A stretch of 64,000 nucleotides of DNA from a virus (Duplodnaviria > Heunggongvirae > Uroviricota > Caudoviricetes). The first letter of the stretch is position 1. The number at the start of each line of letters is the position of its first letter. The DNA lies in the IMG/VR virus record IMGVR_UViG_3300011113_000787, positions 47,269 through 111,268 of that record; one strand, given 5' to 3'. The position numbers and the translations under genes were made by a program. The notes below the pieces were generated by a model. It ran no database searches. It had not been told where the DNA came from and saw only the letters and a program-made list of their open reading frames with translations. This document shows positions 13,477 through 59,452 of this stretch, piece after piece.

Positions 13477-14112
13477 ATGAAAATTTTTCTAACTACCATA
13501 GTTTTATTCTTGAGCCTGAACACTTATTCTCAAGATACTATTCGTATCAAACACACCAACTACTCAACAGTGTTTTCAATCTCAAAAAAATATCCCGTTC
13601 TTGTTGAATGGTGGGTTACTAAGTCTATGGTAACTTGTCCTACTCCTCTCAAAAGAAAAGACAATTTCAAACCTGACCCTAAACTGATTGAACATACCGA
13701 CATTGCAAAGGATTACGTGGGAAGTGGGTTTGATAGGGGTCATATGATGCCTGCCGCAGATAACTTATGCCAAACACCTCAAGTTCAAGACGAGTGTTTT
13801 TATTTTTCAAATATGTCCGCGCAATATCACAGTCTGAATGCTGGTGATTGGAAATCTTTAGAAACCTATGTTAGAGAAGAGGTAAAAAAAACAGATTCAA
13901 TACGTGTATGGACAGGTAATGTAGGTGAGATTCAAAAAATCGGCAAAGTGTCCGTACCAAAATATTGTTGGAAAGTAATATACATTAAGAGTTCGAATGT
14001 TTGGAAGTCTTTTTTGTTTGAAAATAACAAAAACAAACCAGATGGTTTTCAAAACAACGAGGTGAAATTAAGTGAAATAGAAAAGTTGACGGGTTTTATG
14101 TTCAAGAATTGA
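13477..14112 (+). CDS. secreted DNA/RNA non-specific endonuclease (EndoG/Serratia nuclease family)
   Basis: Signal peptide MKIFLTTIVLFLSLNTYSQ; active-site motif GFDRGHMMPAADN (DRGH beta-beta-alpha-Me). Confidence 0.7.
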   Translation: MKIFLTTIVLFLSLNTYSQDTIRIKHTNYSTVFSISKKYPVLVEWWVTKSMVTCPTPLKRKDNFKPDPKLIEHTDIAKDYVGSGFDRGHMMPAADNLCQTPQVQDECFYFSNMSAQYHSLNAGDWKSLETYVREEVKKTDSIRVWTGNVGEIQKIGKVSVPKYCWKVIYIKSSNVWKSFLFENNKNKPDGFQNNEVKLSEIEKLTGFMFKN

Positions 14113-14404
14113 TAACCCCATCAAGATATTTTTTTATTGTCCTTCTGATTTTTTGTTCTCCTAATGCAACCCACTCATCTTCAATCATCTGAAAAATTTT
14201 CCCCACAAGATATTTTTTGTTACCCAAAAGTGGTCTAGTTTTATCATCTATTTGTATAAATTTTGCAGGAGTTTTCATCCAATCAAAATTTATTTCGTGT
14301 GTCGGAAAATGTCTTTTGAGATAAGTCAAAAGCTCATCTGAAGTATCATCATTATATTTTGATAAAATTTCTTTTCTTTCTTCTTCTGTGATACGCATAT
14401 TCAT
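14102..14404 (-). CDS. small protein with family N-terminal motif (MRITEEERKEIL)
   Basis: TATTTATGAAT box directly upstream of second ATG (14398). Confidence 0.4.
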   Translation of the reverse strand: MNMRITEEERKEILSKYNDDTSDELLTYLKRHFPTHEINFDWMKTPAKFIQIDDKTRPLLGNKKYLVGKIFQMIEDEWVALGEQKIRRTIKKYLDGVINS

Positions 14405-14436
14405 AAATATAAGTCTATTTATTTGAAAATCTAACT

Positions 14437-14568
14437 ATGGCAAAAGCAAAAGGCGGTGCAAGTGTATCAAGAAAAATTTCCTTCGGTAAAAGAAAAGGGG
14501 GAGTTGCTAAAAAATCTTATAACAAACACAATCCGAAACCAAAACCTTATAGAGGTCAAGGACGCTAA
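14437..14568 (+). CDS. small highly basic protein (43 aa), not in ORF track
   Basis: MAKAKGGASVSRKISFGKRKGGVAKKSYNKHNPKPKPYRGQGR; ATG 14437, TAA 14566-14568; preceded by TATTTATTTG box. Confidence 0.3.
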   Translation: MAKAKGGASVSRKISFGKRKGGVAKKSYNKHNPKPKPYRGQGR

Positions 14569-14604
14569 CTTTAGTTTTACGATAATTCAATTATAATTTT
14601 TATC

Positions 14605-14892
14605 ATGTTAGATAAGAAAAGAAGACTTTTCCGCCTAATAGAAACCTACATCAATGACTACCAAAAAGAAGCGGTGGAGGAAATGTATGGTGTGGGCACC
14701 AAAATCAAAATTCACAATATCGCAGAATCTCAAACACAAAATTCAATTTTGTTTGAGGCAATCATTGTTTTGGGGGATACTATAACCGAACAAGTTATGG
14801 ATAGAAAATTAGCAGACATTTTAATTCAAGACGCTGTTGTCTATTTTTTCCCTGACCAATCTATTAAAACTTATGTAAGATGGGATGTTTAG
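14605..14892 (+). CDS. hypothetical protein (95 aa)
   Basis: ORF on plus strand in a short plus-strand island. Confidence 0.35.
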   Translation: MLDKKRRLFRLIETYINDYQKEAVEEMYGVGTKIKIHNIAESQTQNSILFEAIIVLGDTITEQVMDRKLADILIQDAVVYFFPDQSIKTYVRWDV

Positions 14893-15197
14893 AGAGTTCT
14901 TTTTCTCATTTCCTCAAGTAATTCACTATTTTCTTTTTGGAGGAATTCTACTTTTACAGTCAGAGCCGAAACCTTTTCTGTAAGTGATAAAATTGTTGTT
15001 CTCATGTCGTCTTTTTCTTTTGAGCTCAACTGAAGAAGGGCTTCTAATTTAGCGATTCTGTCTCTGCAGTCATCACGAACAAAATCCTCGTCTCTTTCTT
15101 TTCTCATTGCTCTTTTTTCGTAAAATCTCCAAGCACTTGTTGAACCCAAAACTGTGACGATGGTTATTAACACCGTCCAAACTGAATCACTCGTCAT
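14889..15197 (-). CDS. membrane-anchored coiled-coil protein (102 aa)
   Basis: N-terminal TM WTVLITIVTVLG then charged coiled coil. Confidence 0.4.
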   Translation of the reverse strand: MTSDSVWTVLITIVTVLGSTSAWRFYEKRAMRKERDEDFVRDDCRDRIAKLEALLQLSSKEKDDMRTTILSLTEKVSALTVKVEFLQKENSELLEEMRKRTL

Positions 15198-15210
15198 ATT
15201 TTAATTTTCT

Positions 15211-15347
15211 TGTATTTTCATAAATACACAAAAGTCAAGAAAAGAATATTTTTTTTAATTAAAAATTTCTGAAGGGAGGGAAATAATTATTATTCTTATA
15301 GAATAATAATATAAATTAAAATATATAAAAAACTAGTAATACTAGTT
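15211..15347. promoter_or_regulatory. AT-rich control region with three perfect palindromes (operator candidates)
   Basis: TGTATTT tcat AAATACA (15211-15228); ATTATTATTC ttata GAATAATAAT (15286-15310); AACTAGTA a TACTAGTT (15331-15347). Confidence 0.35.
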
Positions 15348-16681: not shown

Positions 16682-17179
16682 TTACTGACCTTTAATCATT
16701 CCAATACCATGTTTCAAGAATTCCTTAGCTCTTGGTGAAATGTGTTGCATCGCATAAACTTTTTCGATGTCTTTAACAAGTTCCTCACCATGTTCGTTTT
16801 CCTTGTACAGTTCGATGATTTTGTCCATTGCCTTGGTACATTCTTTCTTAGTTTCATCAAAATAATTGTAAGGTTTAAAACCTTTTAGATGATTCATAAT
16901 CTCGTAAGCCAAGTGTTCCCCACCATCCGAAACCTTCGGGTGTAGTCTAAGGGTTTTAAGTAATTCAAGTTTATCAACTAAACCTCTAACCCCATTTTTT
17001 CTCATCTTAACCCCTTCGATATAATCATCATCTTCGTCATCACCCACAATTTCCTCTAATGATTTTGTATTTCCTGCGTGGCAAAATTTTCTATCTTCAG
17101 TTTTTTCCGATTCACTGACTTGATAGATTCCTCTAATTCTTTGTTTTTCTTCTTCAGTTAAAATAAATCTTTTACCCAT
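16682..17179 (-). CDS. hypothetical protein (165 aa) with family N-terminal motif (FILTEEEKQRIRGIY)
   Basis: TATTTATAGTC box 4 nt upstream of ATG. Confidence 0.45.
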   Translation of the reverse strand: MGKRFILTEEEKQRIRGIYQVSESEKTEDRKFCHAGNTKSLEEIVGDDEDDDYIEGVKMRKNGVRGLVDKLELLKTLRLHPKVSDGGEHLAYEIMNHLKGFKPYNYFDETKKECTKAMDKIIELYKENEHGEELVKDIEKVYAMQHISPRAKEFLKHGIGMIKGQ

Positions 17180-18351: not shown

Positions 18352-18384
18352 AAAAAAAGGGTACTAAATGTAAATCAAGTACCC
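18352..18384 (-). terminator. rho-independent terminator (minus strand)
   Basis: A7 + GGGTACT..AGTACCC hairpin. Confidence 0.45.
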
Positions 18385-18659
18385 TCTTTAGTTTTGTTAT
18401 ATATTGAATTTAGGTCATCGACCACCTTAAAAACATCGTTTTTGGTATTATGTTCAATTTTTTTTCCAACTTTGAATAAAGAATTCAATTCTTTAAGTTT
18501 TCCAATGATATCCTCAATAGAATCCTCTAAATTTTCATTACCTGTACTTGTATCGTATTCCACTGGTTGTACATAAATGTCCAAATCCATTGCAGCACTA
18601 TTTGAACCAGTCTCAACAAGTCTTTTGTATTGTTTTTCGGTTATAAGAATTGTCTTCAC
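18375..18659 (-). CDS. small protein with family N-terminal motif (MKTILITEKQYKRLVE)
   Basis: ORF; N-terminal helix motif. Confidence 0.4.
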   Translation of the reverse strand: MKTILITEKQYKRLVETGSNSAAMDLDIYVQPVEYDTSTGNENLEDSIEDIIGKLKELNSLFKVGKKIEHNTKNDVFKVVDDLNSIYNKTKEGT

Positions 18660-20097: not shown

Positions 20098-21171
20098 ATG
20101 GTATTTATAGTTAGAGTTATGAAGAAAAATATTATAGAAGCTGTAGGTGTTCCTGCAAACATTCACGAAACATCTGAAAAGATATTCAAAAAGGTTTTCA
20201 GTTGGGTCAAAAATCTCCAAGAAGAAGATTTAGAACCAGGTGTCGGTGCCCAAAAAGACTTCAGAGGACAATTTCAAATTGCAGATTATCCTTTTTCAAC
20301 AGTAAGAGTAAAACTTGGTGTAGAGCCTCACAAAAAAGTCACTGAACCTGAGTTGATGTCGATGAGTGTACAAACACAATCCAAGAAAACTGAAGATTTC
20401 AAACTACAGACAATGAAAAGTAAGACAATCAATATTCTTATTCTGATTGTTGTACCGAAAGGTTGGGACTACAGTGAATTACCTTCATTTTTTGAAAAAA
20501 ACAAAAATGAAATATTAGAGAACTTTAGTCATGAGTTAAAACACGCATACGACCATCATAAGAAAGAGTATGATAGTATGGAAAATAGAGCGATTTATCA
20601 AGGTGCTGTTGGCTCAGGTATTGGAATTGACGCTGTTGATAGATTTATTCATGATATCTACTTCACTTCTGCAAATGAAAATTTAGTCAGACCGAGTGAG
20701 ATGTTAAGTGCAATCAAAGCCAACAAAATTTCACAAAAAGATTTTTTAAATTTCTTAACAAATCACGCAACATATCAAAATTTTAAAAGAATACAGAATT
20801 TCAATTATGAACAGTTTGTTCAGGAAATTCTTTCCAAACCAAAACAAGTAGACAAATTCTTAAGAAAACTCGGTTTGGACCCAACTACCATGATGGATAA
20901 AACCAAAGTTAGAAGAGTGTTGGAAGCGACCTATAACTACATTGTAAACACAACAATTTCGAATTACAGTGATATGTTAAAACAATCAATTTTAGACGAA
21001 CTCATCGGTTTCCAAGGTGAACAACAAGTTATGTTTACTAATTTCATAAAGAAAGTAACTAGATTCAAAAAACCTGAAGATTTTTACAAATATTATGAAA
21101 AACAGTTCAAATATGTGGCAGATGAAATGATTAGGAAAATTTCTAAAGTATATTCTTTAGTTGATAAGTAG
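20098..21171 (+). CDS. hypothetical protein (357 aa)
   Basis: Long plus-strand ORF; no recognised motif. Confidence 0.5.
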   Translation: MVFIVRVMKKNIIEAVGVPANIHETSEKIFKKVFSWVKNLQEEDLEPGVGAQKDFRGQFQIADYPFSTVRVKLGVEPHKKVTEPELMSMSVQTQSKKTEDFKLQTMKSKTINILILIVVPKGWDYSELPSFFEKNKNEILENFSHELKHAYDHHKKEYDSMENRAIYQGAVGSGIGIDAVDRFIHDIYFTSANENLVRPSEMLSAIKANKISQKDFLNFLTNHATYQNFKRIQNFNYEQFVQEILSKPKQVDKFLRKLGLDPTTMMDKTKVRRVLEATYNYIVNTTISNYSDMLKQSILDELIGFQGEQQVMFTNFIKKVTRFKKPEDFYKYYEKQFKYVADEMIRKISKVYSLVDK

Positions 21172-21690
21172 GTAATCCTCAACAAAAACTTTACCCTTCC
21201 CTTGTTTCAAAGTAAGATATTTCTTGGTGAATCCGTAAGTGAATCCGTATCTGTTATTATATTCTAAAAGTCCTTTTTTCTTTTTCAAAAAGTCTGAAAT
21301 ATAATACTCCTGTGAACCTCCCCTCCTATGAACTGTTCTCAGAGGTAAATCAAAGTTTTTTTCGAACCATTCACGAATTAAATTGGATAATTCTTTTGAC
21401 TCTAATGAAAATAAACTTTTATAAGGTTTAAAAAATGCCTGATTATAGAAGAGTTCTCCATTGGAAGTAGCTTTTAAAAACCATTCACGAGTATCTTCTT
21501 CGATTATCCAAAAATCACTTTCGTTTGTAAAAATTCCTTTGTCTGCAATGTCTTCTACAAGCTTATTAAAAACAAACTTTTTAAGATTTGGGTGAATTTC
21601 AGACATACTTTTAGTTATCAACAGTTTTAACTGGTTCGTCAAAATTGTGAATGAACCATTTTCTGAATGGTTCTTTCCACATATCACCAA
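21157..21690 (-). CDS. hypothetical protein (177 aa) carrying the family C-terminal WFEKNFDLPLRTV block internally
   Basis: Shares REWFxxNFDxPxxTV with 21611..21982 C-terminus. Confidence 0.4.
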   Translation of the reverse strand: MVICGKNHSENGSFTILTNQLKLLITKSMSEIHPNLKKFVFNKLVEDIADKGIFTNESDFWIIEEDTREWFLKATSNGELFYNQAFFKPYKSLFSLESKELSNLIREWFEKNFDLPLRTVHRRGGSQEYYISDFLKKKKGLLEYNNRYGFTYGFTKKYLTLKQGKGKVFVEDYLLIN

Positions 21691-21982
21691 AATATCCGTT
21701 CAAAATGTTTTCATATTTATACTCTACGGTTACCGTAGGACAAATATCTCTTACATAACTACCAGGACTGAAATATTCACAATCATACCATCTGAAACAA
21801 GTATCATCGTTTTCATAATCCCCAATGTAAAACTCCATCCTCGTTAAATCATCACCCTCTTCCCCTGTCTCGTCATTATATTCATAAGGTACAGTGTAGT
21901 GAATATTATCCACATCGAAAAGTAGGTCCAAATAATTTGTTATTGTCTTTTCTAACTTAGACTCAGAGATTATATATTTCAT
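21611..21982 (-). CDS. MKYIISE-family small protein (group A)
   Basis: N-terminus MKYIISESKLEKTITNYL; C-terminus FRKWFIHNFDEPVKTV. Confidence 0.5.
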   Translation of the reverse strand: MKYIISESKLEKTITNYLDLLFDVDNIHYTVPYEYNDETGEEGDDLTRMEFYIGDYENDDTCFRWYDCEYFSPGSYVRDICPTVTVEYKYENILNGYFGDMWKEPFRKWFIHNFDEPVKTVDN

Positions 21983-22683
21983 TATGCTAAATTGGAATCT
22001 TGTTTTTTGATGGAAGCGAATATAGGTTGACTCATATTTTTGACTTGGTTAGCAATCTGAGATACAGGACCTTCGTATTTTGAAGTTGCATACCTTAATC
22101 CATTCTTATTTACAAAATTATTTAAAAGGTCTGAGGCTGTTTTATCTCCAACCAAATAGTCTCTCGCTATCAAGTCATAATATCTTTGAATACCGCTCTG
22201 AACACTTGAATGAAATTCATTTTTTCCACTATCGGTATTACCTACATTGTAAGGGTTTTTTGTTCTAATAGGTCTTGAATTTGGGTCCTTAGAGAATCCT
22301 CCCTCCGCAGCAAGTTGTGCTAAAGAAAGTTCCACAGGAACATATTTCCCATATTTGTTTTGGGTCTTTTTTGCTGCATCCGCTAACATGGAACCTGTAA
22401 TCCCTAAAAGATTGGAAGACCTTGATGAAATAAAATTGTTTGCAACTTTTTCATATGCTTGGAAGTCTTCAGGCTTATTTAAATCCAACTGTTGAAATTC
22501 CCCAGCAGTATTTGACGAACTTTTAGTCGTTCCGTCACTTGAATCTTCTGTCGATTTTTTATCCCCTTTCAAGTCTTTAAGAATATCACCGATAACATCT
22601 TTTCCTTTCCCACCGAAGACATTTCTAACCAACAAGTCAGTAAAATCTTGTTCTGAAATTATTACTTTAAATTTTTTTCCCAT
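21982..22683 (-). CDS. GH73-type N-acetylglucosaminidase (FlgJ-like) with family N-terminal helix motif
   Basis: AQLAAEGGF, NPYNVG, RYATSKYE resemble GH73 blocks; N-terminus KFKVIISEQDFTDLL then Ser/Thr/Gly linker. Confidence 0.5.
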   Translation of the reverse strand: MGKKFKVIISEQDFTDLLVRNVFGGKGKDVIGDILKDLKGDKKSTEDSSDGTTKSSSNTAGEFQQLDLNKPEDFQAYEKVANNFISSRSSNLLGITGSMLADAAKKTQNKYGKYVPVELSLAQLAAEGGFSKDPNSRPIRTKNPYNVGNTDSGKNEFHSSVQSGIQRYYDLIARDYLVGDKTASDLLNNFVNKNGLRYATSKYEGPVSQIANQVKNMSQPIFASIKKQDSNLA

Positions 22684-24962: not shown

Positions 24963-25382
24963 TTATTGTGTTTTACATTTTTCAGTCGCCATGTCCGACA
25001 AAACCTTTGAATAATATTTTACATTTCCTTTTGAAAAAGCACCATCAGTTGGTAAAGTGCTACAGTTAGCAGTTAAGTTGAAATTGACGGTTCCCTTCAA
25101 ACTAACATCAAGTTTACCTCCATTGTTAGTCATAGATTCAAATTGATAGGTTGCATACTTATTTCTCAATTCTTTATCAGTAAACAAATCTATATTTTGT
25201 CCTGCACCTACGTTAGCTGCAACTGTTTGTGCTTCAGGTGTTGAACTTCTTGTGATATCTCCATATGCTGCAAATCCTGATGAAGGTGTTGTTGAGGTAG
25301 CTGTTGTTGCACCCTCTTCGCCCTGCTCGGAGATAAGTTTAATTAGTTTTTGGTACTGTGTTTCTTTGATAATGTATCTCAT
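24963..25382 (-). CDS. MRYIIKE-family protein (139 aa)
   Basis: N-terminus MRYIIKETQYQKLIKLISEQ. Confidence 0.45.
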   Translation of the reverse strand: MRYIIKETQYQKLIKLISEQGEEGATTATSTTPSSGFAAYGDITRSSTPEAQTVAANVGAGQNIDLFTDKELRNKYATYQFESMTNNGGKLDVSLKGTVNFNLTANCSTLPTDGAFSKGNVKYYSKVLSDMATEKCKTQ

Positions 25383-25490: not shown

Positions 25491-26357
25491 TTAAATATCT
25501 ATTCTTATTTTATTATCAGGGAATCCCAGTTTTGAAAAATATGACTTAACTTTATCTTTAAGAGCACTTCTACTCTGATACGATGGGTAACCCTTAAAAA
25601 TGAATTTCATATTAGCACCTGTTGTGTTCGGTTCAAACCTTATACTTTTTAAATCTCTTGCTTCAGGGAAAGTACGAATTTCTTTTTTTATAACTTTATT
25701 CAAAACGTCTTTGACCCACGGCTCTAAACCGACAAGTTTTGGCTCTTCTACTTGTATATTTAATTCTCCATGAGCAGGATTACCTAATTCCAATCCCAAA
25801 TAATTTTTCACAAAATCTTCAATCTTTCTTGAAATGGTATATGTGCTTATTGATTTGGTGCTTGGAGAAAGTAACATAGTGGCAAATGGAACGTCAACGA
25901 ATACTTTAACGAATTTTGGGTCATCCTCCACAAATCGTATACTTGCATATTCAGGTAATTCCAATTGCTCAATTATCTCGGGTAATATTTTATTATATTT
26001 TTCTGTGAATTTTTCCTCAGAATACAAACTAGGTAATTGATATCCTCCCCTTTTAACAACTGACTTAACGATTTTTTCAATATCCCACTTACTAATTTCA
26101 TAATCATTGTAATCGTCCATATTACGATAATCGGTACCAGTCATATCTATCAAAAATTGTTTGGAATATTTTTTTACTAAAAATCCAAAAGGATATGACC
26201 AAAATTTTTCAGGGGTGTTTTTTCTAATCCAATCCATGAATATATGGACGAATGCTGCCATGTAATCAAGCTCATCGTATTCAAGGTTAACTTGTTCTAC
26301 GATGTTCTTGATTACTGAAATTAGTTCTGATTCTTTTAAAAATATCTTGGACGCCAT
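25491..26357 (-). CDS. hypothetical protein (288 aa) with family N-terminal helix (KIFLKESELISVIKNIVEQ)
   Basis: Long ORF; N-terminal motif. Confidence 0.5.
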   Translation of the reverse strand: MASKIFLKESELISVIKNIVEQVNLEYDELDYMAAFVHIFMDWIRKNTPEKFWSYPFGFLVKKYSKQFLIDMTGTDYRNMDDYNDYEISKWDIEKIVKSVVKRGGYQLPSLYSEEKFTEKYNKILPEIIEQLELPEYASIRFVEDDPKFVKVFVDVPFATMLLSPSTKSISTYTISRKIEDFVKNYLGLELGNPAHGELNIQVEEPKLVGLEPWVKDVLNKVIKKEIRTFPEARDLKSIRFEPNTTGANMKFIFKGYPSYQSRSALKDKVKSYFSKLGFPDNKIRIDI

Positions 26358-26955: not shown

Positions 26956-27363
26956 TTAATCATTTGTCTTAGCGTCAATTGTCCCTCCAGCATCAAATGT
27001 ACTGAACTTAAGTCCAGCATATTGTGATAACTCAACCATTTTTACTCTTAAATCATGAAAATAGAGTTCACCATAACATTTATCCACCATTTCTTTATTA
27101 ATCGGACCACCATCCCACCCATTTTCAATCAAAGGAGTTTTATCTATAATAACATCACAATCATAATCAATAAAGTTCTCACTCATAGTGTATGGTCCCA
27201 TTTTTCTTTTTACTAAAACTTCAACAGATTTGTTTGTTTTAAATTCGAGAACATAGGGATATGATAGAGGCATAAGATTATCCCAAACCTTACTAAGAGT
27301 TTTAGTGTAGTCTTTGACTATATCCTTTTCCTCATATTCAGAAGTCCATCCCATACTATGCAC
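26956..27363 (-). CDS. hypothetical protein (135 aa)
   Basis: ORF coupled to upstream gene. Confidence 0.4.
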   Translation of the reverse strand: MHSMGWTSEYEEKDIVKDYTKTLSKVWDNLMPLSYPYVLEFKTNKSVEVLVKRKMGPYTMSENFIDYDCDVIIDKTPLIENGWDGGPINKEMVDKCYGELYFHDLRVKMVELSQYAGLKFSTFDAGGTIDAKTND

Positions 27364-28783
27364 CTACTTTCTTTACAACACCTGAGGTCCCTTGCTGCAC
27401 ATCTCTTGCCTTGGCACCTTGATAATCAAATTCACCTCTGGCGGTGTTAGCTCCTACATCCGCTACTTTCAGATACTTACCCTCATTATTATATTTGAAT
27501 AGTTTTTTTCCACCTAAGTACGCCAAATATAAATCACCATACGCTGTACCAAAATTCGAATCTACCCATCTCAAAAATTCTTCAGTAGGTCGTTCTTTAA
27601 ACCTACTGTTAGACTCTTTCTCAATATACTTTAATGTTGTTTTTTCTAATTCTTTTCCGACATATTCTCCAATTTCTTGTTCAGTCAATGCTGCAACTTT
27701 AGAAAAAACAGCAGGTTCAAATTTAGTTGCAAGAATTGTTGAAGTTCTGAGTAGTGTTGGTGATAATATTGAAGAAATTAATGAACCTACTTTTTGAGCA
27801 CTACCTTGTAAGTTTTTTGAAAACCACGCAACTATTTGAGTATAATAAGGTTCAATTTTAGAAATTAAGTTTGATACCCAATTAATCCCCATCCTGTCTT
27901 TCATAAATTTAGCAGCTTGTCCAAACCAGTACATGAGAGTTTTAAAACCTCCAATAATAATTTGAATAAATGGTTTTACTGAAGTTCCCGCATTACTTTT
28001 CATTAATGCAGCTAAGAAACCTTCAACAGAAGTGAAAACCTTGCCAGCAAAGGCGGATAAAGGTTTTCCTAAATAACCTGAACTTACACAACAAATAATA
28101 TCAATTAATAAATTACCTAAATAACCTGTGTTACCATTAACAACAACTTGATATAAATCATAAAGGCCCATTATACCCCAAACAATCGTAACCGCAACAG
28201 CACCCGCACCTGTAAAAGACAAAGCAATTTGTATTGCAGTTCCAACACCACTGAAAAGTGCCTGTCTGATGTTTTCCATCACATAAGTAAGACCTTTTTC
28301 TTTGATGTAGTTAATTGCATCCATTAAACCTGAGGTTGCTTGTTGATTATAAGTCTTCATAGCATTTCTTTCACTTTGAGACATAAACCTCGATTCAGGT
28401 TGTTCAACAAGGGTAACTTTCAAGGATTCTAATATGAAGTTATGGAGTCTTTCCAATTCTTTCGAAAAATCGTCTATGGATTCGTTAAGTACATTTAAAA
28501 ATTTGTTGTTAAAATTTTCTAAAATATTTGAGTTATTTCCAAACAACCCTAAAGCATAATCATTTTGAACATTTCTGAGGTAAATGTTCTTATCAACGCC
28601 AACAAGCATAGAGATTCTATGTAAGTGTACTCCCTTTTGAAACTCAAATTCTTCTTGTATGAATGAAAATTGTTCTGATAATTTTGTGGGACAGGCTTTT
28701 TTATATCTTTTTGGAACGAATTTATCGTGTAATCCTAAAATTCTATCTTTTTCGGACTCAGATATGATAAGTGAATTATTCAT
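27356..28783 (-). CDS. large membrane protein (475 aa) with Gly-zipper TM region and family N-terminal helix
   Basis: MNNSLIISESEKDRILGLH N-terminus; central GVGTAIQIALSFTGAGAVAVTIVWGIMG hydrophobic region; adjacent to the M23 peptidase gene. Confidence 0.5.
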   Translation of the reverse strand: MNNSLIISESEKDRILGLHDKFVPKRYKKACPTKLSEQFSFIQEEFEFQKGVHLHRISMLVGVDKNIYLRNVQNDYALGLFGNNSNILENFNNKFLNVLNESIDDFSKELERLHNFILESLKVTLVEQPESRFMSQSERNAMKTYNQQATSGLMDAINYIKEKGLTYVMENIRQALFSGVGTAIQIALSFTGAGAVAVTIVWGIMGLYDLYQVVVNGNTGYLGNLLIDIICCVSSGYLGKPLSAFAGKVFTSVEGFLAALMKSNAGTSVKPFIQIIIGGFKTLMYWFGQAAKFMKDRMGINWVSNLISKIEPYYTQIVAWFSKNLQGSAQKVGSLISSILSPTLLRTSTILATKFEPAVFSKVAALTEQEIGEYVGKELEKTTLKYIEKESNSRFKERPTEEFLRWVDSNFGTAYGDLYLAYLGGKKLFKYNNEGKYLKVADVGANTARGEFDYQGAKARDVQQGTSGVVKKVGA

Positions 28784-28801: not shown

Positions 28802-29419
28802 TTAAAATTTAAAATTGAATATAGACCCGAAGCCTGTGTCTTTGGTTAAATCTTCCTCATCATTGTCTACATCATCCGACGGTTGTGCTGTGCCTATGTT
28901 TACTTTATTGAGATTTATATTACCTCCGCATTTGATAGTACCATCATCGTTAATAAGTTCTCTGATGTTATGGCCCGACTCAATCCCAATATGTAAGTGG
29001 TCGTATGAACTTCCTGGGAAATCCATAACATAACCTAAGAGTTGACCACACTCAATCTTGTCTCCTTTGTTTACCTGTGGGTCTTTCAAGTGTGTATAAT
29101 AAACATCAGGTAAACCCTCATCACTTTTCACTGTGAATCCTGCACCAAATAATTTCTTTCCGTTTGTTTTGATTACCTTAGGACCATAGTCTTTGAATGT
29201 TACTACAGTTCCTGGTGCAACTGCATAAACAGGGTCCCCTATATCTGCTTTAATATCCCAAGCATTGTTACTTTGCCATCCTGATTGTCCTGCGTGAGCT
29301 CCATCTCTTGGTATTTTGATGTCGTTATCTCCCATTATTTTATCTGAGGCGTTTGGGGCTTCATTAATTCCTGACTTAATCAACCTTAATAGTTGTGACT
29401 CTGTTAAAATGTACTTCAT
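28802..29419 (-). CDS. M23 (LytM-type) metallopeptidase with family N-terminal helix motif
   Basis: MKYILTESQLLRLIKSGINE N-terminus; HAGQSGWQ..D..IGDPVYAVAPGTV...YYTHL...GQLLGYV...HLHIGIE = M23 HxxxD / HxH blocks. Confidence 0.65.
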   Translation of the reverse strand: MKYILTESQLLRLIKSGINEAPNASDKIMGDNDIKIPRDGAHAGQSGWQSNNAWDIKADIGDPVYAVAPGTVVTFKDYGPKVIKTNGKKLFGAGFTVKSDEGLPDVYYTHLKDPQVNKGDKIECGQLLGYVMDFPGSSYDHLHIGIESGHNIRELINDDGTIKCGGNINLNKVNIGTAQPSDDVDNDEEDLTKDTGFGSIFNFKF

Positions 29420-29838: not shown

Positions 29839-30246
29839 TTACAATCCCCAAGCTGGGTTAGCAATTATCAATTTTCCGTCTTCTACTCTTGGTAAATCAC
29901 CTAAGTCTTGATAACCTGCATATTCAATCTCATGAGGGAAGAATTTTTGACCATTAAACATGATATAATTGTCCCCTTCTTCTTCTTTTCCAATATGACT
30001 ATATCCGTGTTTTTTTAAATGTGTTTTTGCCGCGTCATCTACAGTTGGTCTACCAAAGTTCAAATCCCAAAAACTTTCTTTAGTTTCTTTTTTCTCAACT
30101 TTTTGTTCTACTAATGTTTTAACGTCACCGAGTCTTGATTTCACAAGTTTATTGAACTTCTCATTTGAAAGTTTCATTCCACCTGTATGCTGTTCGCGGA
30201 TTGCATTTTTCTCTTGCTCCGACAAATTATTTAAAAGATGCTTCAT
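29839..30246 (-). CDS. hypothetical protein (135 aa)
   Basis: N-terminus LSEQEKNAIREQH weakly family-like. Confidence 0.4.
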   Translation of the reverse strand: MKHLLNNLSEQEKNAIREQHTGGMKLSNEKFNKLVKSRLGDVKTLVEQKVEKKETKESFWDLNFGRPTVDDAAKTHLKKHGYSHIGKEEEGDNYIMFNGQKFFPHEIEYAGYQDLGDLPRVEDGKLIIANPAWGL

Positions 30247-35876: not shown

Positions 35877-36000
35877 TTAGTTTTTCAATATTAACTTGAA
35901 TCTCTTCTTCTGAGACATTTGCAGTTCTTAATACTTCAGTTAATATCTCAATATCAATTTCGTTGGAGAGTTTTTTTGCGAGTAATTCTTCTACGGTCAT
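35803..36000 (-). CDS. small protein (65 aa), paralog of 35479..35646
   Basis: Shared IDIEI..L..ANV..EEI motif. Confidence 0.35.
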   Translation of the reverse strand: MTVEELLAKKLSNEIDIEILTEVLRTANVSEEEIQVNIEKLIDSQDTEFERQFMGGTKQIHGTEK

Positions 36001-38672: not shown

Positions 38673-38697
38673 TCTTATTTCTAAAATATTTTTTAAT

Positions 38698-44162: not shown

Positions 44163-44837
44163 TCATTTTTTCTTTTTCACACAGTTCGGATATCTTTTAC
44201 CAAACATAGTTTTCATGCCCTTTTGAGTGTATCCTTTCCAGCATCTCTCTTTGAGTTCACCCTCGGTCTGTTCCATCTTTTTCTCACCTCCAGGTCTGAT
44301 AACAATTATCTGACCAACATATAGGTTTTGTGGCGTTATTGGAGTTTCATAAAAATCAAACCAACATCTTCTGAAGTCGTACTTACTCACAACTCTCATC
44401 TCTTCTAAGTAAGGGTCTAAGATAAATAAGTTTTCATCATTATACCCTATGACTACTGATGAATGTCCCTCGGGTGGGTCACCACAGAACCAATCGACAA
44501 TCACAGGAACGTTGGCATCAATCAAACGAACAACTTCTTCGATTGTTGAGTTGTTTTTCATATAAACTTTGAAACCTAAAGACTCAGCTGCACAAGCCAT
44601 GTCTTCACTCTTACATCCTAATTCATATGTGTGGTCACAAATTTCAGCAATATCTTTCTCACTCAACATTGTACCATAGTATCCGAAAACCATTCTTAGT
44701 GAAGCAGGTCCGCAAGTTGAATCATCTGATTGTAGAAAATGAGGAACATCCAAAATCTTTGTTGGAGTTTGGTTAGTTTCCTCAATTATCAGAGAAACCA
44801 ATTCGATAAGTTGTGTTTCAGTTAATCTACGTATCAT
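44163..44837 (-). CDS. C39-like papain-fold cysteine peptidase with family N-terminal helix
   Basis: MIRRLTETQLIELVSLIIEE N-terminus; FLQSDDSTCGPASLRMVFGYYG (Q..CG.ASL.M) and GHSSVVIGY...DP blocks as in peptidase C39. Confidence 0.55.
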   Translation of the reverse strand: MIRRLTETQLIELVSLIIEETNQTPTKILDVPHFLQSDDSTCGPASLRMVFGYYGTMLSEKDIAEICDHTYELGCKSEDMACAAESLGFKVYMKNNSTIEEVVRLIDANVPVIVDWFCGDPPEGHSSVVIGYNDENLFILDPYLEEMRVVSKYDFRRCWFDFYETPITPQNLYVGQIIVIRPGGEKKMEQTEGELKERCWKGYTQKGMKTMFGKRYPNCVKKKK

Positions 44838-45400
44838 GCTCTTGAAAATATAAATTCAATGTCTCTTGGGAAACCATCTTTTTGATGAGGACTATCTATA
44901 CCACCCATTCTTATAAAATCTTTGAAGTTTGACCTAAAGACTTCTAAATCGTCGTGAAACTTTTGGTTTTTAACCCAATTGAACCAATCATCAGTCACAG
45001 GTGTTAGTACAACAATCCATTTATCAGATTGAGGCGTTACTTTATTAACTTTGAGTCCTTTGAGACGCTCGAAGTTGTTCATTTTCCTGGTTTTTCTGAA
45101 AACAAAGTCTACAAGTTTTTGGAACTCTTCCTCATACGGTTCCCACTGAGGGTCCTTAATATATTTTGGTTCCCCATCAATCTTATTTTTCAGATAATAT
45201 AATGGGTCGAAATATTCTTTTAAGTCCTCATGAGTTCCACAGTGAGGACATATTGGCTTAGATTTCTTTCCTTTATGTATAGTTTGGGTGTACTTCTTTT
45301 TACAATTTCTACATTTGATAAATTTTGCAGTCTCATCTTTTTCTTCCATGAGTTTTTTCATCAAATCAAGATGTTGTTTTTCAGAAATTAAAATGTTCAT
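44834..45400 (-). CDS. zinc-ribbon protein (188 aa) with family N-terminal helix (MNILISEKQHLDLMKKLMEE)
   Basis: CRNCKKK...CPHCG zinc ribbon. Confidence 0.45.
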   Translation of the reverse strand: MNILISEKQHLDLMKKLMEEKDETAKFIKCRNCKKKYTQTIHKGKKSKPICPHCGTHEDLKEYFDPLYYLKNKIDGEPKYIKDPQWEPYEEEFQKLVDFVFRKTRKMNNFERLKGLKVNKVTPQSDKWIVVLTPVTDDWFNWVKNQKFHDDLEVFRSNFKDFIRMGGIDSPHQKDGFPRDIEFIFSRA

Positions 45401-57576: not shown

Positions 57577-57602
57577 TTTCGTTTTATTTAACGGTTTATA
57601 AA

Positions 57603-57641
57603 TAAAAATCCCATCTTCACCTGCAACGTAGTTGAGATGGG
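57603..57641 (-). terminator. rho-independent terminator (minus strand), long hairpin
   Basis: CCCATCT...AGATGGG with nested CAAC gta GTTG. Confidence 0.4.
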
Positions 57642-57690
57642 ATGGGACTTATATTCTCTTATAAATATCTTTGAGTTTCTAAAAATCGAC

Positions 57691-58014
57691 TTACATGAAC
57701 CTTTTGACTCTCATTCCCTTAGATGCAAAGTAATCTTTAAACACCTTTTTTGTAGATTCTGCATTCAAATTAAACATATCTTGTATCTTATGATAAAGTT
57801 CATCTAAAACAAATAAAAGTTGTTCCCCTTTGTCGTAAGCTATTTGATTTCGCTTTCCTCTACCGTAAACAATAAGGTTATCATTTTCCTCAGGAGTATA
57901 GTCTTTTAGATATGAATCCAAAAATAAAAAAATAATTTTATCAACTTTGGATTCACTGATGTAATTCACTTTCAAAAAGTCTTTAATCCTATTTTCAGTT
58001 ATAATGTATCTCAT
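57691..58014 (-). CDS. MRYIITE-family small protein (array member 1)
   Basis: MRYIITENRIKDFLKVNYI. Confidence 0.5.
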   Translation of the reverse strand: MRYIITENRIKDFLKVNYISESKVDKIIFLFLDSYLKDYTPEENDNLIVYGRGKRNQIAYDKGEQLLFVLDELYHKIQDMFNLNAESTKKVFKDYFASKGMRVKRFM

Positions 58015-58319
58015 GGCTCTACGAATTCTATTTTAACATTGAATTTATTTTCAAACCATAACTTGATTAAAACTTTCATTCTTCCTTGACTCAAAGCAAA
58101 CATGTCGGTCAACATTTTTTGGAAATTACGGTTAACCCATAATCTTCCATCTGAGTGGTCAAACTCCATAATATCCTCCCAATCATCCTCATCATCCCCA
58201 ACTTTTTGAGATACAACAATGTAAGGATGGAGTCTGTTAACAACCTTTCTTCCAACCAAATCCTCAAGGTAATCGAGTATAAACTGATTTAATCTATTTT
58301 CTGATATTACGTACTTCAT
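58011..58319 (-). CDS. MKYVISE-family small protein (array member 2)
   Basis: MKYVISENRLNQFILDYL; C-terminus LWFENKFNVK. Confidence 0.5.
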   Translation of the reverse strand: MKYVISENRLNQFILDYLEDLVGRKVVNRLHPYIVVSQKVGDDEDDWEDIMEFDHSDGRLWVNRNFQKMLTDMFALSQGRMKVLIKLWFENKFNVKIEFVEP

Positions 58320-58605
58320 GGTTAATATTTCTTATTGTTGCGGTGGCTGAATGAACGGGAACTCCAACCATATCCTCAACGAACTGTGCAAGTTCGTGTT
58401 TAAACAAATGAAAATCAGGACCCATAGTTCTTTCGGTAACATAAAATATTGGATGAAGAATATAATAGGTTCCACCCATCATTGCTTTACCTTCTTCAAT
58501 CGCAACCTCAGTTTTCATAACAGAGTTGTTTGTGAAAGTCTCAGCAACCTGTTTGATAATTTCTTTTATCCTATCGTTTTGTTCCTCAGTTATAATGTAT
58601 CTCAT
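58294..58605 (-). CDS. MRYIITE-family small protein (array member 3)
   Basis: MRYIITEEQNDRIKEIIKQ. Confidence 0.5.
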   Translation of the reverse strand: MRYIITEEQNDRIKEIIKQVAETFTNNSVMKTEVAIEEGKAMMGGTYYILHPIFYVTERTMGPDFHLFKHELAQFVEDMVGVPVHSATATIRNINHEVRNIRK

Positions 58606-59012
58606 AAGTTTCCTTGGTTACCCCAGCCAAAGTTATCAACTTTTTTTACTTTCAAACCCGTATTATTTTGGAACCATTCAATAAAGATAGGTTTCCAACC
58701 TTCACCAAAATATGCAGACAGAGAGTTTACAATACCATCAGGTAACAAAACTAATGGACAATCTTCTTTTTTCAAACTCACATTGGGATTGGTATAAACT
58801 GAATACCACATATGACTTCCATCATCGGGTGTATCAACATCATCGATGAAGATGAAAACCTCACCGTCATTTTCCTTTAACTCACTTTTGTACTTTTTGG
58901 GAGATTGCCAACCATCAAATGGCGTTAGATTTTTGTCGAAATACTCGATAATTTGGTCTACCAACCTTCTGTTTTGTTCCTCTGTTATAATATAAATCAT
59001 ACTTTTGTCCAA
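58602..59012 (-). CDS. MIYIITE-family small protein (array member 4)
   Basis: MIYIITEEQNRRLVDQII; C-terminus IEWFQNNTGLKVKKV. Confidence 0.5.
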   Translation of the reverse strand: MDKSMIYIITEEQNRRLVDQIIEYFDKNLTPFDGWQSPKKYKSELKENDGEVFIFIDDVDTPDDGSHMWYSVYTNPNVSLKKEDCPLVLLPDGIVNSLSAYFGEGWKPIFIEWFQNNTGLKVKKVDNFGWGNQGNL

Positions 59013-59452
59013 TTTAATGAATAGACATCCACATCAAGAGGTGTCCCATAATATGTTACATCAATATTGAAAAAGGATTTTAGGTCTTTGAATATTTCCC
59101 TTTTGGTTACAGCAGCCCAATTTCTATCATTTTCCATATTATTGAAATCAAAATAAAACTTCAGATTTGGTTTCTGAATTGAAAAGTTTTCATGTCCATA
59201 GTGAGAGGGTTTCTCCTTAATCTCAATCTTTACCAATAAGTCACCGTACTTAGATTCGAAGTAATCAACTATCCTTGGAATAATACTTTCAATATGACTT
59301 TTATATTCTTTAATGAACTCAATTCTGCCTTCCGTCGGTAGGTTGTGAAACTTCACCACCCAATCTGGTGTATTAGGTTCAACTTTGAGTGCTTCCTTTA
59401 AAACCTTTCTAATGAGTTCTTTCATCGTCCCCTTTCTGTTTTTTTGTTCCAA
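58997..59452 (-). CDS. hypothetical protein (151 aa), family-like N-terminus (MKELIRKVLKEALK)
   Basis: ORF, array member 5. Confidence 0.45.
   Translation of the reverse strand: MEQKNRKGTMKELIRKVLKEALKVEPNTPDWVVKFHNLPTEGRIEFIKEYKSHIESIIPRIVDYFESKYGDLLVKIEIKEKPSHYGHENFSIQKPNLKFYFDFNNMENDRNWAAVTKREIFKDLKSFFNIDVTYYGTPLDVDVYSLNWTKV

What the first reader, a model, noticed from the sequence alone, without database searches (positions are those of the whole stretch)
14102..59452. Family of >25 ORFs sharing a ~20-aa N-terminal helix motif fused to unrelated C-termini, including three cell-wall hydrolases
Seen directly: N-termini M(K/R)YII(S/T)E(S/N/E)(Q/R)L..(L/I)(I/V) (21611, 24963, 28802, 35120, 37225, 37545, 41558, 42774, 57691, 58011, 58294, 58602) and the related ..(I/L)x(L)(T/S)ESDL.RLVKR(I/V)IKE (30673, 31205, 38698, plus looser 25491, 44163, 44834, 21982, 18375, 16682, 27356, 38267, 14102). 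The parts downstream of the helix are unrelated (M23 peptidase, GH73 glucosaminidase, C39-like peptidase, a 475-aa Gly-zipper membrane protein, zinc ribbon, many 90-130-aa proteins), and the enzymes are joined to the helix by low-complexity linkers. The invariant [IL]-x-E core matches the T4-type prohead-protease cleavage / capsid-targeting consensus (L/I-x-E). My inference is that this helix is a virion-targeting or docking propeptide, marking a large arsenal of packaged/ejected proteins (the lysins for cell-wall penetration, the small ones as internal or anti-defence proteins). I know of no described family with this architecture.
Basis: partly seen in the sequence, partly recalled or inferred. 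Interest (0 to 1): 0.85.

Follow-up and report, generated by a model that had tools for sequence, protein, structure and literature searches.

The report
Capsid-targeting-like tags on phage proteins
About two dozen genes in this piece of a giant T4-related phage start with short, highly conserved "address tags" that end in the cutting motif of the T4-type head protease, so they probably mark proteins that are loaded into the virus head and injected into the host, which nobody has yet shown by experiment.

Summary
The quoted N-termini are real, sit only at gene starts, and are far more frequent than chance. They are not one family. There are at least four tag classes:
- A: MKYIITESQL.
- B: the 22-aa MKKIIRLTESDLTRIVKRVIxE.
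- C: about 28 aa.
- D: about 47 aa.

B, C and D end in [LIV]-x-E, after which similarity stops.

The B tag occurs on 7,634 protein clusters in public metagenomes, nearly always at residue 1 and in front of unrelated sequences. It varies freely at synonymous codon positions. Orthologous cargo proteins carry different tags.

Related contigs, up to 321 kb, encode T4-type portal, major capsid protein and an S77 prohead protease. Window tag genes are enriched for the promoter-like motif that precedes scaffold and capsid genes.

This fits the T4 capsid-targeting-sequence and internal-protein model, on a much larger scale.

Caveats:
- No proteomic evidence exists.
- No protease gene lies in the window.
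- Tag genes are only occasionally next to the head module.
- Seven class-A proteins are full-length paralogues in which the helix is part of the fold.
- The GH73 call is unconfirmed.

Verdict: a new variant of a known kind, and interesting.

The parts
30673..31194 (-). Class B tag protein, 173 aa. N-terminus MSRIIRLTESDLTRLVKRVIKE|Q. C-terminal hydrophobic Gly-rich segments.
   Evidence: B-model E 1.8e-13. Matches the IMG/VR consensus. No Pfam family above threshold.
31205..31492 (-). Class B tag protein, 95 aa. N-terminus MPKIVKLNESDLQKLVKRIIKE|D.
   Evidence: Promoter-like motif upstream.
38698..38931 (-). Class B tag protein, 77 aa. N-terminus MAKTIKLRESDLVRLTKKILKE|G.
   Evidence: (P0001 is identical). 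Promoter-like motif upstream.
25491..26357 (-). Divergent class B tag protein, 288 aa. N-terminus MASKIFLKESELISVIKNIVE|Q.
   Evidence: B-model E 4.9e-7. No Pfam or PHROG family.
28802..29419 (-). M23 peptidase with an A/B-type tag, 205 aa. N-terminus MKYILTESQLLRLIKSGINE|APNASD, followed by a linker and the M23 domain (residues 51-148).
   Evidence: Peptidase_M23 1.3e-12. Hits both the modA and B models. Homologues elsewhere carry a different N-terminal helix ending (L/V/I)NE|(V/A).
44163..44837 (-). C39-like cysteine peptidase with a B-like tag, 224 aa. N-terminus MIRRLTETQLIELVSLIIEE|T. Also carries a conserved C-terminal CWKGY..PNCV module.
   Evidence: Peptidase_C39_2 5.5e-18. B-model 9.3e-6. 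PHROG 'endolysin' 2e-8.
16682..17179 (-). Class C tag protein, 165 aa. N-terminus MGKRFILTEEEKQRIRGIYQVSE|S.
   Evidence: modC 2.4e-9. The same cargo carries B-like tags in L040 and L138.
27356..28783 (-). Class C tag protein, 475 aa. N-terminus MNNSLIISESEKDRILGLH...KLSE|Q. Hydrophobic Gly-rich central region.
   Evidence: modC 1.5e-6. Weak PHROG tape-measure hit.
38267..38605 (-). Class C tag protein (112 aa from the ATG). N-terminus MKNLVIITEEERRSILGMHNLSE|QTQPQQP, followed by a low-complexity linker.
   Evidence: modC 1.7e-8. L094 has a homologous tag on a different cargo.
14102..14404 (-). Class C-like tag protein, 100 aa. N-terminus MNMRITEEERKEILSKY. No clear [LIV]xE boundary.
   Evidence: modC 7.2e-7.
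29839..30246 (-). Class D (long, 47-aa) tag protein, 135 aa.
   Evidence: modD 4.7e-24. The tag precedes unrelated cargos in L083, L094, L106, L118 and L121. The same cargo sits behind a B tag in L139.
21611..21982 (-). Class A N-terminus (MKYIISESKL). Member of the small paralogous alpha/beta family ('A-1'), 123 aa.
35120..35452 (-). Class A N-terminus (MKYLISESRL). A-1 family, 110 aa. This is the protein that was modelled.
   Evidence: AF2 pLDDT 91.9: residues 1-6 are flexible and helix 7-21 lies inside the fold. 205 homologues. No PDB fold match.
37225..37542 (-). A-1 family, 105 aa. Loose tag MDYIIAESRL.
   Evidence: Not found by modA.
41558..41938 (+). A-1 family, 126 aa. N-terminus MRYIITQTQL.
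   Evidence: E 0.043.
57691..58014 (-). A-1 family, 107 aa. N-terminus MRYIITENRI.
58011..58319 (-). A-1 family, 102 aa. N-terminus MKYVISENRL.
58602..59000 (-). A-1 family, 132 aa from the internal ATG. N-terminus MIYIITEEQN.
37545..37790 (-). Class A tag protein, 81 aa from the ATG at 37790. N-terminus MKYIISESRLEKLVLSFLE|Q. Cargo unrelated to A-1.
   Evidence: modA 1.1e-5. Start site. Promoter-like motif upstream.
42774..43025 (+). Class A tag protein, 83 aa. N-terminus MKYIITEQQASEIF...VLE|Q.
   Evidence: modA 1.4e-4. Promoter-like motif upstream.
58294..58605 (-). Class A tag protein, 103 aa. N-terminus MRYIITEEQNDRIKEII.
   Evidence: modA 0.031.
24963..25382 (-). Loose class A tag, 139 aa. 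N-terminus MRYIIKETQYQKLIKLISE|QGEEGATTATS, followed by a low-complexity linker.
   Evidence: No HMM hit.
21982..22683 (-). Loose tag (MGKKFKVIISEQDF), 233 aa.
   Evidence: No family in Pfam, PHROGs or PDB. Promoter-like motif upstream.
44834..45400 (-). Loose tag (MNILISEKQHLDLMKKLMEE|K), 188 aa. Contains CxxC...CxxC.
   Evidence: Sub-threshold zinc-ribbon hits. Promoter-like motif upstream.
18375..18659 (-). Loose tag (GTG start; MKTILITEKQYKRLVE|TGSNS), 94 aa.
   Evidence: No HMM hit.
21157..21606 (-). A-1 family paralogue without the MKYII tag.
35997..36338 (-). A-1 family paralogue without the MKYII tag. Its subfamily starts at MKDKIYKFLD.

Best explanation
The window is an accessory-gene region of an uncultured T4-related jumbo phage, probably with a Bacteroidota host. 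The short N-terminal modules are propeptide 'address tags' analogous to the T4 capsid-targeting sequence.

**Proposed mechanism**
1. The basic amphipathic helix docks the protein onto the acidic prohead core or scaffold during head assembly (inferred).
2. The S77 (gp21-type) prohead protease then cuts after the Glu of the [LIV]-x-E that ends the tag. It may also cut at the internal L-T-E (inferred).
3. The mature cargo stays in the head and is ejected with the DNA (inferred). Cargo includes M23 and C39-like peptidases, membrane-active proteins and many small proteins that may be anti-defence or takeover factors.

**Shown versus inferred**
- Shown: tag anatomy, N-terminal exclusivity, tag exchange between orthologous cargos, selection at the protein level, presence of S77, portal and capsid genes in the lineage, and a shared promoter-like motif.
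- Inferred: docking, cleavage, packaging and ejection.

For the A-1 small-protein family, only the first 6-7 residues could act as a tag. The helix that follows belongs to the fold.
For: 1. **Sharp tag boundary.** In 111 distinct B tags, positions 1-6 and Glu22 are nearly invariant although they were not part of the search pattern (E22 in 109 of 111). Position 21 is free, and similarity vanishes after residue 22-23.
2. **Other tag classes end the same way.**
   - Class C ends in [LIVM]xE within 17 residues in 28 of 32 cases, against 9 expected.
   - Class D ends L[IV]xE.
3. **Scale and position.**
   - 7,634 cluster representatives match the B profile at E<=1e-3, mostly from residue 1.
   - At least 120 IMG/VR stretches match the DNA pattern, with Met 6-7 residues upstream in 121 of 127.
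4. **Selection acts on the peptide.** Synonymous codons vary freely. Identity is 0.85 at codon positions 1+2 and 0.62 at position 3. Beyond codon 22 it falls to 0.32 and 0.34.
5. **Tags are exchangeable.**
   - The cargo of 29839 sits behind a B tag in L139.
   - The cargo of 16682 sits behind B-like tags in L040 and L138.
   - M23 homologues use another helix ending xNE|V/A.
6. **The lineage is T4-type.**
   - phmmer finds homologues of T4 gp17, 18, 19, 20, 21, 23 and 25.
   - Pfam finds Peptidase_S77, Gp23 and Portal_T4.
   - The window shares orthologues with loci that carry these genes.
7. **Matching cleavage motifs.**
   - The capsid protein N-terminus has ...SFLINE|ATS, against T4 SFLTE|AE.
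   - T4 tags themselves end I-A-E, I-T-E and L-R-E.
8. **Tag genes do occur in head modules.** They lie between the S77 gene and the scaffold gene in L079, L087, L102, L112, L120 and L162.
9. **Shared promoter-like motif.** [GTA]TATTTA[TC] precedes scaffold, capsid and p238 head genes.
   - It is enriched before window tag genes: 12 of 25 against 13 of 105, p=2e-4.
   - Among genes with their own upstream gap: 9 of 12 against 12 of 53, p=1e-3.
10. **The ordinary endolysin-like gene has no tag.** ORF 4026-4841 (PG_binding_1 + GH19) lacks one.
11. **Precedent.** T4 internal proteins share only a CTS and are otherwise diverse. Tags of 10-20 residues are removed by gp21.
Against: - There is no virion proteomics and no cleavage data.
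- No protease, portal or capsid gene lies in the window itself. The link to the T4-type lineage is through orthologues and shared tags.
- In loci selected by the protease alone, a tag gene lies between protease and scaffold in only 1 of 61. Only 6 of 79 such loci hold any B tag. Adjacency is therefore occasional.
- [LIV]xE is a common tripeptide, about 0.019 per position. Its density in the scaffold protein is only 1.5-2 times background.
- In the A-1 family the helix is part of a confident globular fold, and some subfamilies lack the MRYIIT start.
- There is no detectable sequence similarity to the T4 CTS.
- Some cargos are hydrophobic, or only 20-30 residues long once the tag is removed.
Confidence: 0.55

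Rival explanations
1. The tags are binding helices for some other common partner and are neither cleaved nor packaged. Candidate partners are a phage or host chaperone, the membrane, DNA, or each other through coiled-coil oligomerisation.
For: - The B tag is a basic amphipathic helix with heptad-like hydrophobic spacing.
- Its extreme conservation regardless of cargo points to a common partner, but does not say which one.
- In the A-1 family the helix is structural.
- Tags occur two or three times inside some proteins.
Against: - This does not explain why four unrelated tag classes all end in [LIV]xE exactly at the conservation boundary.
- It does not explain the restriction of the tags to an S77-encoding T4-type lineage.
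- It does not explain the promoter-like motif shared with head genes.
Confidence: 0.2
2. The tags have no common function. They are leftovers of paralogue expansion and of recombination at gene starts, or they reflect favourable translation-initiation sequences in an AT-rich genome without Shine-Dalgarno sites.
For: - Seven class-A genes are true paralogues.
- The tags are AT-rich at the codon level.
- The region is a mosaic of small accessory genes, with repeated terminator-promoter cassettes.
Against: - Amino acids are conserved while synonymous codons vary.
- 7,634 clusters with unrelated cargos keep an almost invariant 22-mer.
- The conservation includes specific charged residues, which initiation efficiency does not need.
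Confidence: 0.1
3. The tags are export leaders of the double-glycine or bacteriocin type, removed by the C39-like peptidase in the window.
For: - The core L-T-E-S-D-L-x-R-I resembles the LSxxELxxIxGG leader consensus (my own knowledge).
- A C39-like peptidase is encoded at 44163-44837.
- Some tagged proteins elsewhere are small and Cys-rich.
Against: - There is no Gly-Gly at the boundary. Positions 21-22 are x-E in 109 of 111.
- The C39-like protein has no fused ABC transporter and carries a tag itself.
- It matches a PHROG annotated as endolysin.
- The cargos include large enzymes.
- The context is a lytic T4-type phage.
Confidence: 0.05

Closest known systems
T4 capsid-targeting sequence (CTS) of internal proteins IPI, IPII, IPIII, Alt and gp24, removed by the gp21 (S77) prohead protease
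   Same: - Short N-terminal tag shared by otherwise unrelated proteins.
- The tag ends in [LI]-x-E.
- The phage lineage encodes an S77 protease, a T4-type portal, a capsid protein and an acidic scaffold.
- Cargo genes lie in variable accessory regions.
   Different: - No sequence similarity to MKTYQEFIAE.
- The tags are longer (22, about 28 and about 47 aa) and fall into at least four classes.
- There are two dozen tagged genes in 45 kb, against a handful in T4.
- The cargos include peptidoglycan peptidases and membrane proteins.
- Tag-delimited multi-cargo proteins exist.
- Packaging is not demonstrated.
Propeptides of ejection and inner-body proteins in phiKZ-like giant phages (phiKZ, 201phi2-1, SPN3US), processed by a gp21-related protease at S/A/G-x-E
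   Same: - Many head-internal proteins with N-terminal propeptides, cut after Glu.
- Conserved N-termini between diverged paralogues.
- Some cargos have transmembrane helices (PMC5694885).
   Different: - Those propeptides are mostly longer than 100 residues and are not a portable, near-invariant tag.
- The cleavage motif there is A/S/G-x-E, not [LIV]-x-E.
- It is a different phage lineage.
Phage P1 Dar system, with N-terminal capsid-targeting of DarB and related proteins
   Same: Anti-defence proteins are packaged in the head through N-terminal information (listed: PMC9024508, PMC12810830).
   Different: - No shared short consensus tag across many cargos.
- Incorporation is ordered through DarA and Hdf.
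- No S77-type cleavage motif.
- These papers were not read in detail here.
Moraphages, T4-related aquatic jumbo phages of Bacteroidota (PMC12619734)
   Same: - Freshwater metagenomic origin.
- Genomes up to 307 kb.
- Bacteroidota hosts predicted.
- Core genes include the prohead core protease, portal, gp23-type capsid protein, gp25 and a ClpA-like ATPase.
- Contigs carrying the tags reach 294-321 kb and carry the same core genes.
   Different: - Whether the window belongs to this lineage was not tested.
- A word search of the paper found no occurrence of 'N-terminal'.

Membership tests
T4-type capsid-targeting propeptide (CTS) | Located at the extreme N-terminus of the precursor | tested here: met
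   - The tag starts at the initiator Met in all window members.
- Met lies 6-7 residues upstream in 121 of 127 IMG/VR cases.
- The profile match starts at residue 1 in most of the top 150 hits.
T4-type capsid-targeting propeptide (CTS) | Same tag on otherwise unrelated cargo proteins | tested here: met
   - Similarity collapses after residue 22.
- Tags are swapped between orthologous cargos.
- Exception: the A-1 family members are paralogues of each other.
T4-type capsid-targeting propeptide (CTS) | Tag ends at a prohead-protease site ([LI]-x-E, cut after Glu) | tested here: inconclusive
   - The motif is present at the boundary of classes B, C and D.
- The motif is also present in T4 tags.
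- Actual cleavage cannot be tested.
- Several class-A members and 14102 lack a clear terminal site.
T4-type capsid-targeting propeptide (CTS) | The phage encodes an S77 (gp21) prohead protease and a T4-type prohead | tested here: met
   - Met for the lineage: Peptidase_S77, Gp23 and Portal_T4 occur in loci that carry the tags.
- These genes are not present within the 64-kb window.
- The link to the window runs through orthologues.
T4-type capsid-targeting propeptide (CTS) | Sequence homology to the T4 CTS (MKTYQEFIAE) | tested here: not met
   - The T4 IP N-termini were read directly. Apart from a starting MK and the final x-E, nothing is shared.
- phmmer with T4 gp67 and gp68 found nothing.
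T4-type capsid-targeting propeptide (CTS) | Cargo found in virions with the tag removed; the tag is sufficient to package a foreign protein | not testable with these tools
   This needs virion proteomics or N-terminomics, or reporter fusions.
Double-glycine (C39-processed) export leader | Gly-Gly (or GA/GS) at the cleavage site, and a PCAT transporter | tested here: not met
   - Positions 21-22 are x-E, and 17-18 are K-R or variable.
- The C39-like ORF has no transporter domains.
Sec or lipoprotein signal peptide | Hydrophobic h-region followed by a signal-peptidase site | tested here: not met
   - The tags are charged amphipathic helices.
- True signal peptides in the window look different, for example 13477, 43376 and 59778.
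Any curated protein family (Pfam, PHROGs) | A profile match covering the N-terminal module or the A-1 family | tested here: not met
   - No Pfam or PHROG match covers the tags or A-1 proteins.
- Precomputed Pfam is '-' for all listed hits.
- Only uncharacterised phage proteins match the A-1 fold.
GH73 glucosaminidase (claimed for ORF 21982-22683) | Match to PF01832 or a solved GH73 structure | tested here: not met
   - No hit was found even at E<=10.
- No fold-level test was run.

The most novel reading that the evidence does not exclude
The tags form a modular, multi-class address code: at least four interchangeable classes on thousands of protein clusters. With this code, T4-related jumbo phages of Bacteroidota would load dozens of different effectors per genome into the head and inject them. 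The effectors would include peptidoglycan peptidases, membrane-active proteins, possibly a polyphosphate kinase, and many orphan small proteins. Some would be made as tag-delimited polyproteins that the prohead protease cuts apart. If so, the injected proteome of uncultured phages could be read directly from sequence.
Probability: 0.35. Interest if true: 0.8.

Novelty: new variant of a known kind. Interest (0 to 1): 0.65.

Why it matters
Proteins injected with phage DNA act first in an infection. In T4 they are anti-restriction factors. They are very hard to recognise from sequence, because they are small, diverse orphans.

A portable, near-invariant tag would help in several ways:
- **A sequence-only handle on injected proteins.** The tag ends in the head-protease motif and sits on more than 7,600 protein clusters, so it would flag the injected arsenal of a large, uncultured, environmentally common phage group.
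- **A source of candidates.** The tagged proteins would be a rich pool of anti-defence and host-takeover candidates.
- **A new targeting peptide.** It could be used to load foreign proteins into capsids, as the T4 CTS already is.
- **A view of tag evolution.** It would show how such tags diversify and get exchanged between cargos.

Tried and rejected
- **Phage database searches.** Megablast of 24 kb of the window, tblastn of a class-A protein and tblastn of the 23-aa B consensus against 50,697 GenBank phage records all found nothing.
- **Contig walking.** Exact-protein look-ups gave only short Logan contigs. The protease could therefore not be sought on the window's own contig.
- **Shallow structure model.** AlphaFold with 9 paralogues gave pLDDT 62 and was discarded. 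A 48-sequence alignment was needed.
- **Fold searches.** PDB gave nothing significant. The viral library gave only uncharacterised phage proteins.
- **Synteny hypothesis.** The idea that tag genes belong to the head module failed in protease-selected loci, at 1 of 61.
- **[LIV]xE density in the scaffold.** Tested as a read-out of protease specificity and found inconclusive, because the proteins are very Glu-rich.
- **DNA-level conservation.** Rejected by the codon analysis.
- **Class E tag.** A possible fifth class (xIxRIKxLM) was not N-terminal-specific under a loose pattern, with 9 N-terminal and 13 internal hits.
- **Literature.** A search for the motif strings found no paper.
- **GH73.** The assignment for ORF 21982 was not reproduced.

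Full report
**1. What the window is**

The sequence has about 33% G+C and is densely packed with small ORFs, mostly on the minus strand. It has no tRNA genes. It occurs only in metagenome assemblies.

It has no nucleotide or protein-level match among 50,697 GenBank phage records. IMG/VR holds many relatives:
- L006 and L007 are close relatives. Their M23 proteins are 85% and 75% identical to the window's, and most other shared genes are 65-99% identical.
- More distant relatives lie on contigs of 118-317 kb.

The window also encodes:
- Bacteroidota-style lipoprotein and signal sequences;
- a TonB-dependent-receptor-like protein;
- UmuC/UmuD-like proteins, PPK2, UDP-galactopyranose mutase and an SPFH protein;
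- an ordinary-looking endolysin, PG_binding_1 + GH19.

**2. Checking the observation**

The enrichment is real.
- The simple pattern [ILVF]x[ST]E begins within the first nine residues of 16 of 130 genes, against about 2 expected from its internal frequency.
- Codons differ between copies. Ser is TCT, TCC, AGT or TCA, and Lys is AAA or AAG. The conservation is therefore in the peptide.

The 'family' is heterogeneous.
- All-against-all comparison and alignment show that 21611, 35120, 37225, 41558, 57691, 58011 and 58602 are full-length paralogues.
- They share an N-terminal helix and a C-terminal '...WF...' helix.
- 21157 and 35997 are further members that lack the MKYII start.
- The remaining ORFs share only their N-termini.

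Domain checks gave mixed results:
- M23 is confirmed for 28802.
- C39-like is confirmed for 44163.
- The GH73 call for 21982 could not be reproduced with Pfam (even at E<=10), PHROGs or PDB sequences.

**3. Four tag classes, all strictly N-terminal**

Related sequences resolved the motif into classes.

| Class | Form | Window members |
|---|---|---|
| A | MKY[IL]I[ST]E[SN][QR]L | the A-1 paralogues plus 37545, 42774, 58294 (and, loosely, 24963) |
| B | 22-residue MKK[IV][IV][RK]LTESDLxRIVKRVIxE | 30673, 31205, 38698; divergent 25491, 44163; 28802 is an A/B intermediate |
| C | about 28 residues, MKxFIITEEEKSRILGMHxxAxxxQYLxE | 16682, 27356, 38267, 14102 |

Evidence that the classes are real:
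- HMMs for A, C and D were built without the window or its close relatives. They recover 9, 4 (+1 weak) and 1 window ORFs, always at the start Met.
- Across 1,711 distinct N-termini from related loci, the A pattern occurs 25 times and the C pattern 32 times. Internally they occur 1 and 0 times in 261,182 residues.

**4. The B tag is a very large, sharply bounded module**

The contigs reach 321 kb.
- In 121 of 127 cases a Met lies 6-7 residues upstream. The proteins are mostly 80-200 aa and unrelated after the tag.
- In 111 distinct copies, residues 1-6 and Glu22 are nearly invariant although the pattern did not require them (E22 in 109 of 111).
  - Residue 21 is free.
  - Residue 23 is mostly Q, N, E, S or D.
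  - Everything after that is random.
- At the DNA level, identity is 0.85 at codon positions 1+2 and 0.62 at position 3 within the tag. In the next ten codons it is 0.32 and 0.34, and synonymous codons are used freely.
- A profile search of 1.84 billion cluster representatives found 7,634 proteins at E<=1e-3. Most matched from residue 1.
- None of these proteins has a Pfam domain or an informative name.
- No paper in the library contains the motif strings.

**5. Tags are exchangeable**

- The cargo domain of 29839 (D tag) sits behind a B tag in L139.
- The cargo of 16682 (C tag) sits behind B-like tags in L040 and L138.
- Homologues of the M23 protein in other contigs are about 650-aa proteins. 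Their N-terminal helix is different but again ends ...(L/V/I)NE|(V/A)... before a Ser-rich linker.
- Some database proteins contain two or three tags, each in front of a different cargo. One second cargo also exists elsewhere as a stand-alone tagged gene.

**6. The lineage has the T4 head machinery**

I took T4 proteins from the GenBank record and compared them with all ORFs of the fetched loci.
- Homologues of gp17, gp18, gp19, gp20, gp21, gp23 and gp25 were found. The gp21 matches had E 1e-17 to 1e-20.
- Pfam confirmed Peptidase_S77 (84.8 bits), Gp23 (156.7 bits) and Portal_T4 (253 bits).
- The window shares orthologues with such loci. For example, ORF 57124 is 77% identical and the M23 protein 74% identical to proteins in L009 and L010, which carry terminase and portal genes.
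- At least 596 IMG/VR stretches encode close relatives of this protease.

The conserved head module runs portal, 238-aa protein, 155-aa protein, S77 protease, 71-aa protein, acidic scaffold, capsid protein.

The capsid protein begins MGALLES...ENQASFLINE|ATSEGS. This resembles T4 gp23 ...AFGSFLTE|AEIGG, where the precursor is cut after Glu65 (established T4 knowledge). The following VRR...VQ[PA]MN segment aligns.

T4's own tags, read from the record, are:
- MKTYQEFIAE|A, identical in IPII and IPIII, which diverge afterwards;
- ...STITE|A in IPI;
- MAKINELLRE|S in gp24.

The literature describes T4 internal proteins as diverse, with only a conserved CTS. It describes CTSs as 10-20-residue propeptides removed by gp21, with cleavage after Glu in T4 and in giant phages.

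**7. Further indirect support**

*Class C boundary.* Class C tags end in [LIVM]xE within 17 residues of their His/Tyr in 28 of 32 cases, against 9 expected. The next residue is Q, N, S, A or D.

*Promoter-like motif.* The element [GTA]TATTTA[TC] lies upstream of scaffold, capsid and p238 head genes in related loci. It is often preceded by an AATTTTT element.
- In the window it precedes 12 of 25 tag genes against 13 of 105 other ORFs (Fisher p=2e-4).
- Among genes with their own upstream gap it precedes 9 of 12 against 12 of 53 (p=1e-3).
- Other window genes with the motif include the endolysin-like gene, a LamG protein and outer-membrane-like proteins.
- This is compatible with a late class, although the timing is inferred.

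*Endolysin.* The endolysin-like gene has no tag, whereas the M23 and C39-like peptidases do.

**8. Evidence that cuts the other way**

- Tag genes lie between protease and scaffold in six loci that were found through the tag. In loci chosen by the protease alone this is true of only 1 of 61, and only 6 of 79 hold any B tag. The tag genes are accessory genes scattered through the genome, as in this window, and are not head-module genes.
- [LIV]xE density in the scaffold is only 1.5-2 times background.
- The A-1 family is a widespread family with 205 homologues.
  - With a 48-sequence alignment, AlphaFold gives pLDDT 91.9. Residues 1-6 are loose, but helix 7-21 is packed into an alpha/beta domain.
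  - Some subfamilies lack the first ten residues or so.
  - The fold matches only uncharacterised phage proteins.
- Nothing here shows packaging or cleavage.

**9. Conclusion**

The best reading is a T4-style capsid-targeting and propeptide system. It is much expanded and diversified, and it sits in a T4-related jumbo-phage lineage that probably infects Bacteroidota. That lineage may be the recently named moraphages or related to them, which I did not test.

It is a new variant of a known kind rather than a new category. I put 0.55 on this explanation. The main rival is a shared binding helix with no packaging role.

Noticed in passing
window 37794-37901, 38177-38284, 38598-38704, 38946-38988: A repeated intergenic cassette, read on the minus strand. 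It consists of a GC-rich hairpin plus T-run (terminator-like), then AAAAATTTTTGGGAAAAAATTGTCC, then GGTATTTATT just before the next small gene. There are three or four copies.
   Followed up: partly
window-wide (for example upstream of 4026, 7820, 11181, 13477, 19084 and 59409); related loci L154-L232: The promoter-like element [GTA]TATTTA[TC] lies 5-45 nt upstream of many genes and upstream of scaffold, capsid and p238 head genes in relatives. The 155-aa/protease operon instead has TTGATATATAT...AAATAAAC. This suggests two promoter classes.
   Followed up: partly
window 59778-63508 (minus strand): A lipoprotein (400 aa) sits next to a TonB-dependent-receptor-like protein with Plug, beta-barrel and CarboxypepD_reg domains. 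The pair is conserved in five viral contigs, at 83% identity (lipoprotein, L023-L027) and 64-67% (receptor), so it appears to be phage-borne.
   Followed up: partly
window 44163-44837, residues 186-224; also 1192-1809: A conserved C-terminal module ...ERCWKGYTQKGMKTMFGKRYPNCVKKKK is shared at 75-82% identity with unrelated proteins in six loci (L104, L122, L037, L070, L066, L143). It also matches PHROGs 9737, 727 and 4359, whose function is unknown.
   Followed up: no
window 1813-2919, 47832-48446, 15358-15627 (minus strand): A possible fifth N-terminal class, xE[IL]xRI[KR]x[LIVM][LM]G[ILV][IL]xE.
- It sits on a PPK2 whose catalytic domain starts only at residue 128 (MSVLNELSRIRSVMGILKE|E).
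- It also sits on two other ORFs.
- Relatives have MNLQENIQRIREMMGLLNE.
- Under a loose pattern it was not N-terminal-specific, with 9 N-terminal and 13 internal hits.
   Followed up: partly
database proteins P0251, P0252, P0260, P0333, P0339: These proteins carry two or three B tags, each in front of a different cargo. Two of them are Cys-rich. They may be tag-delimited polyproteins or fused neighbouring genes.
   Followed up: partly
window 45901-47790 (minus strand): A UmuC-like Y-family polymerase (IMS domains) lies next to a short S24/UmuD-like protein, with an acyl-CoA-thioesterase-like ORF between them.
   Followed up: no
window 10177-12877 (minus strand): Two paralogous proteins share a 120-aa N-terminal domain (71% identity). 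They continue into Pro/Thr-rich linkers and a LamG domain. A third PT-rich protein lies next to them. They may be fibre or adhesin proteins.
   Followed up: no
window 36289-36884 (minus strand): Three small tandem paralogues (about 70-78 aa) share ...GG..KIHK near the C-terminus. A similar ending occurs in 33591-33770 and 35803-36000.
   Followed up: no
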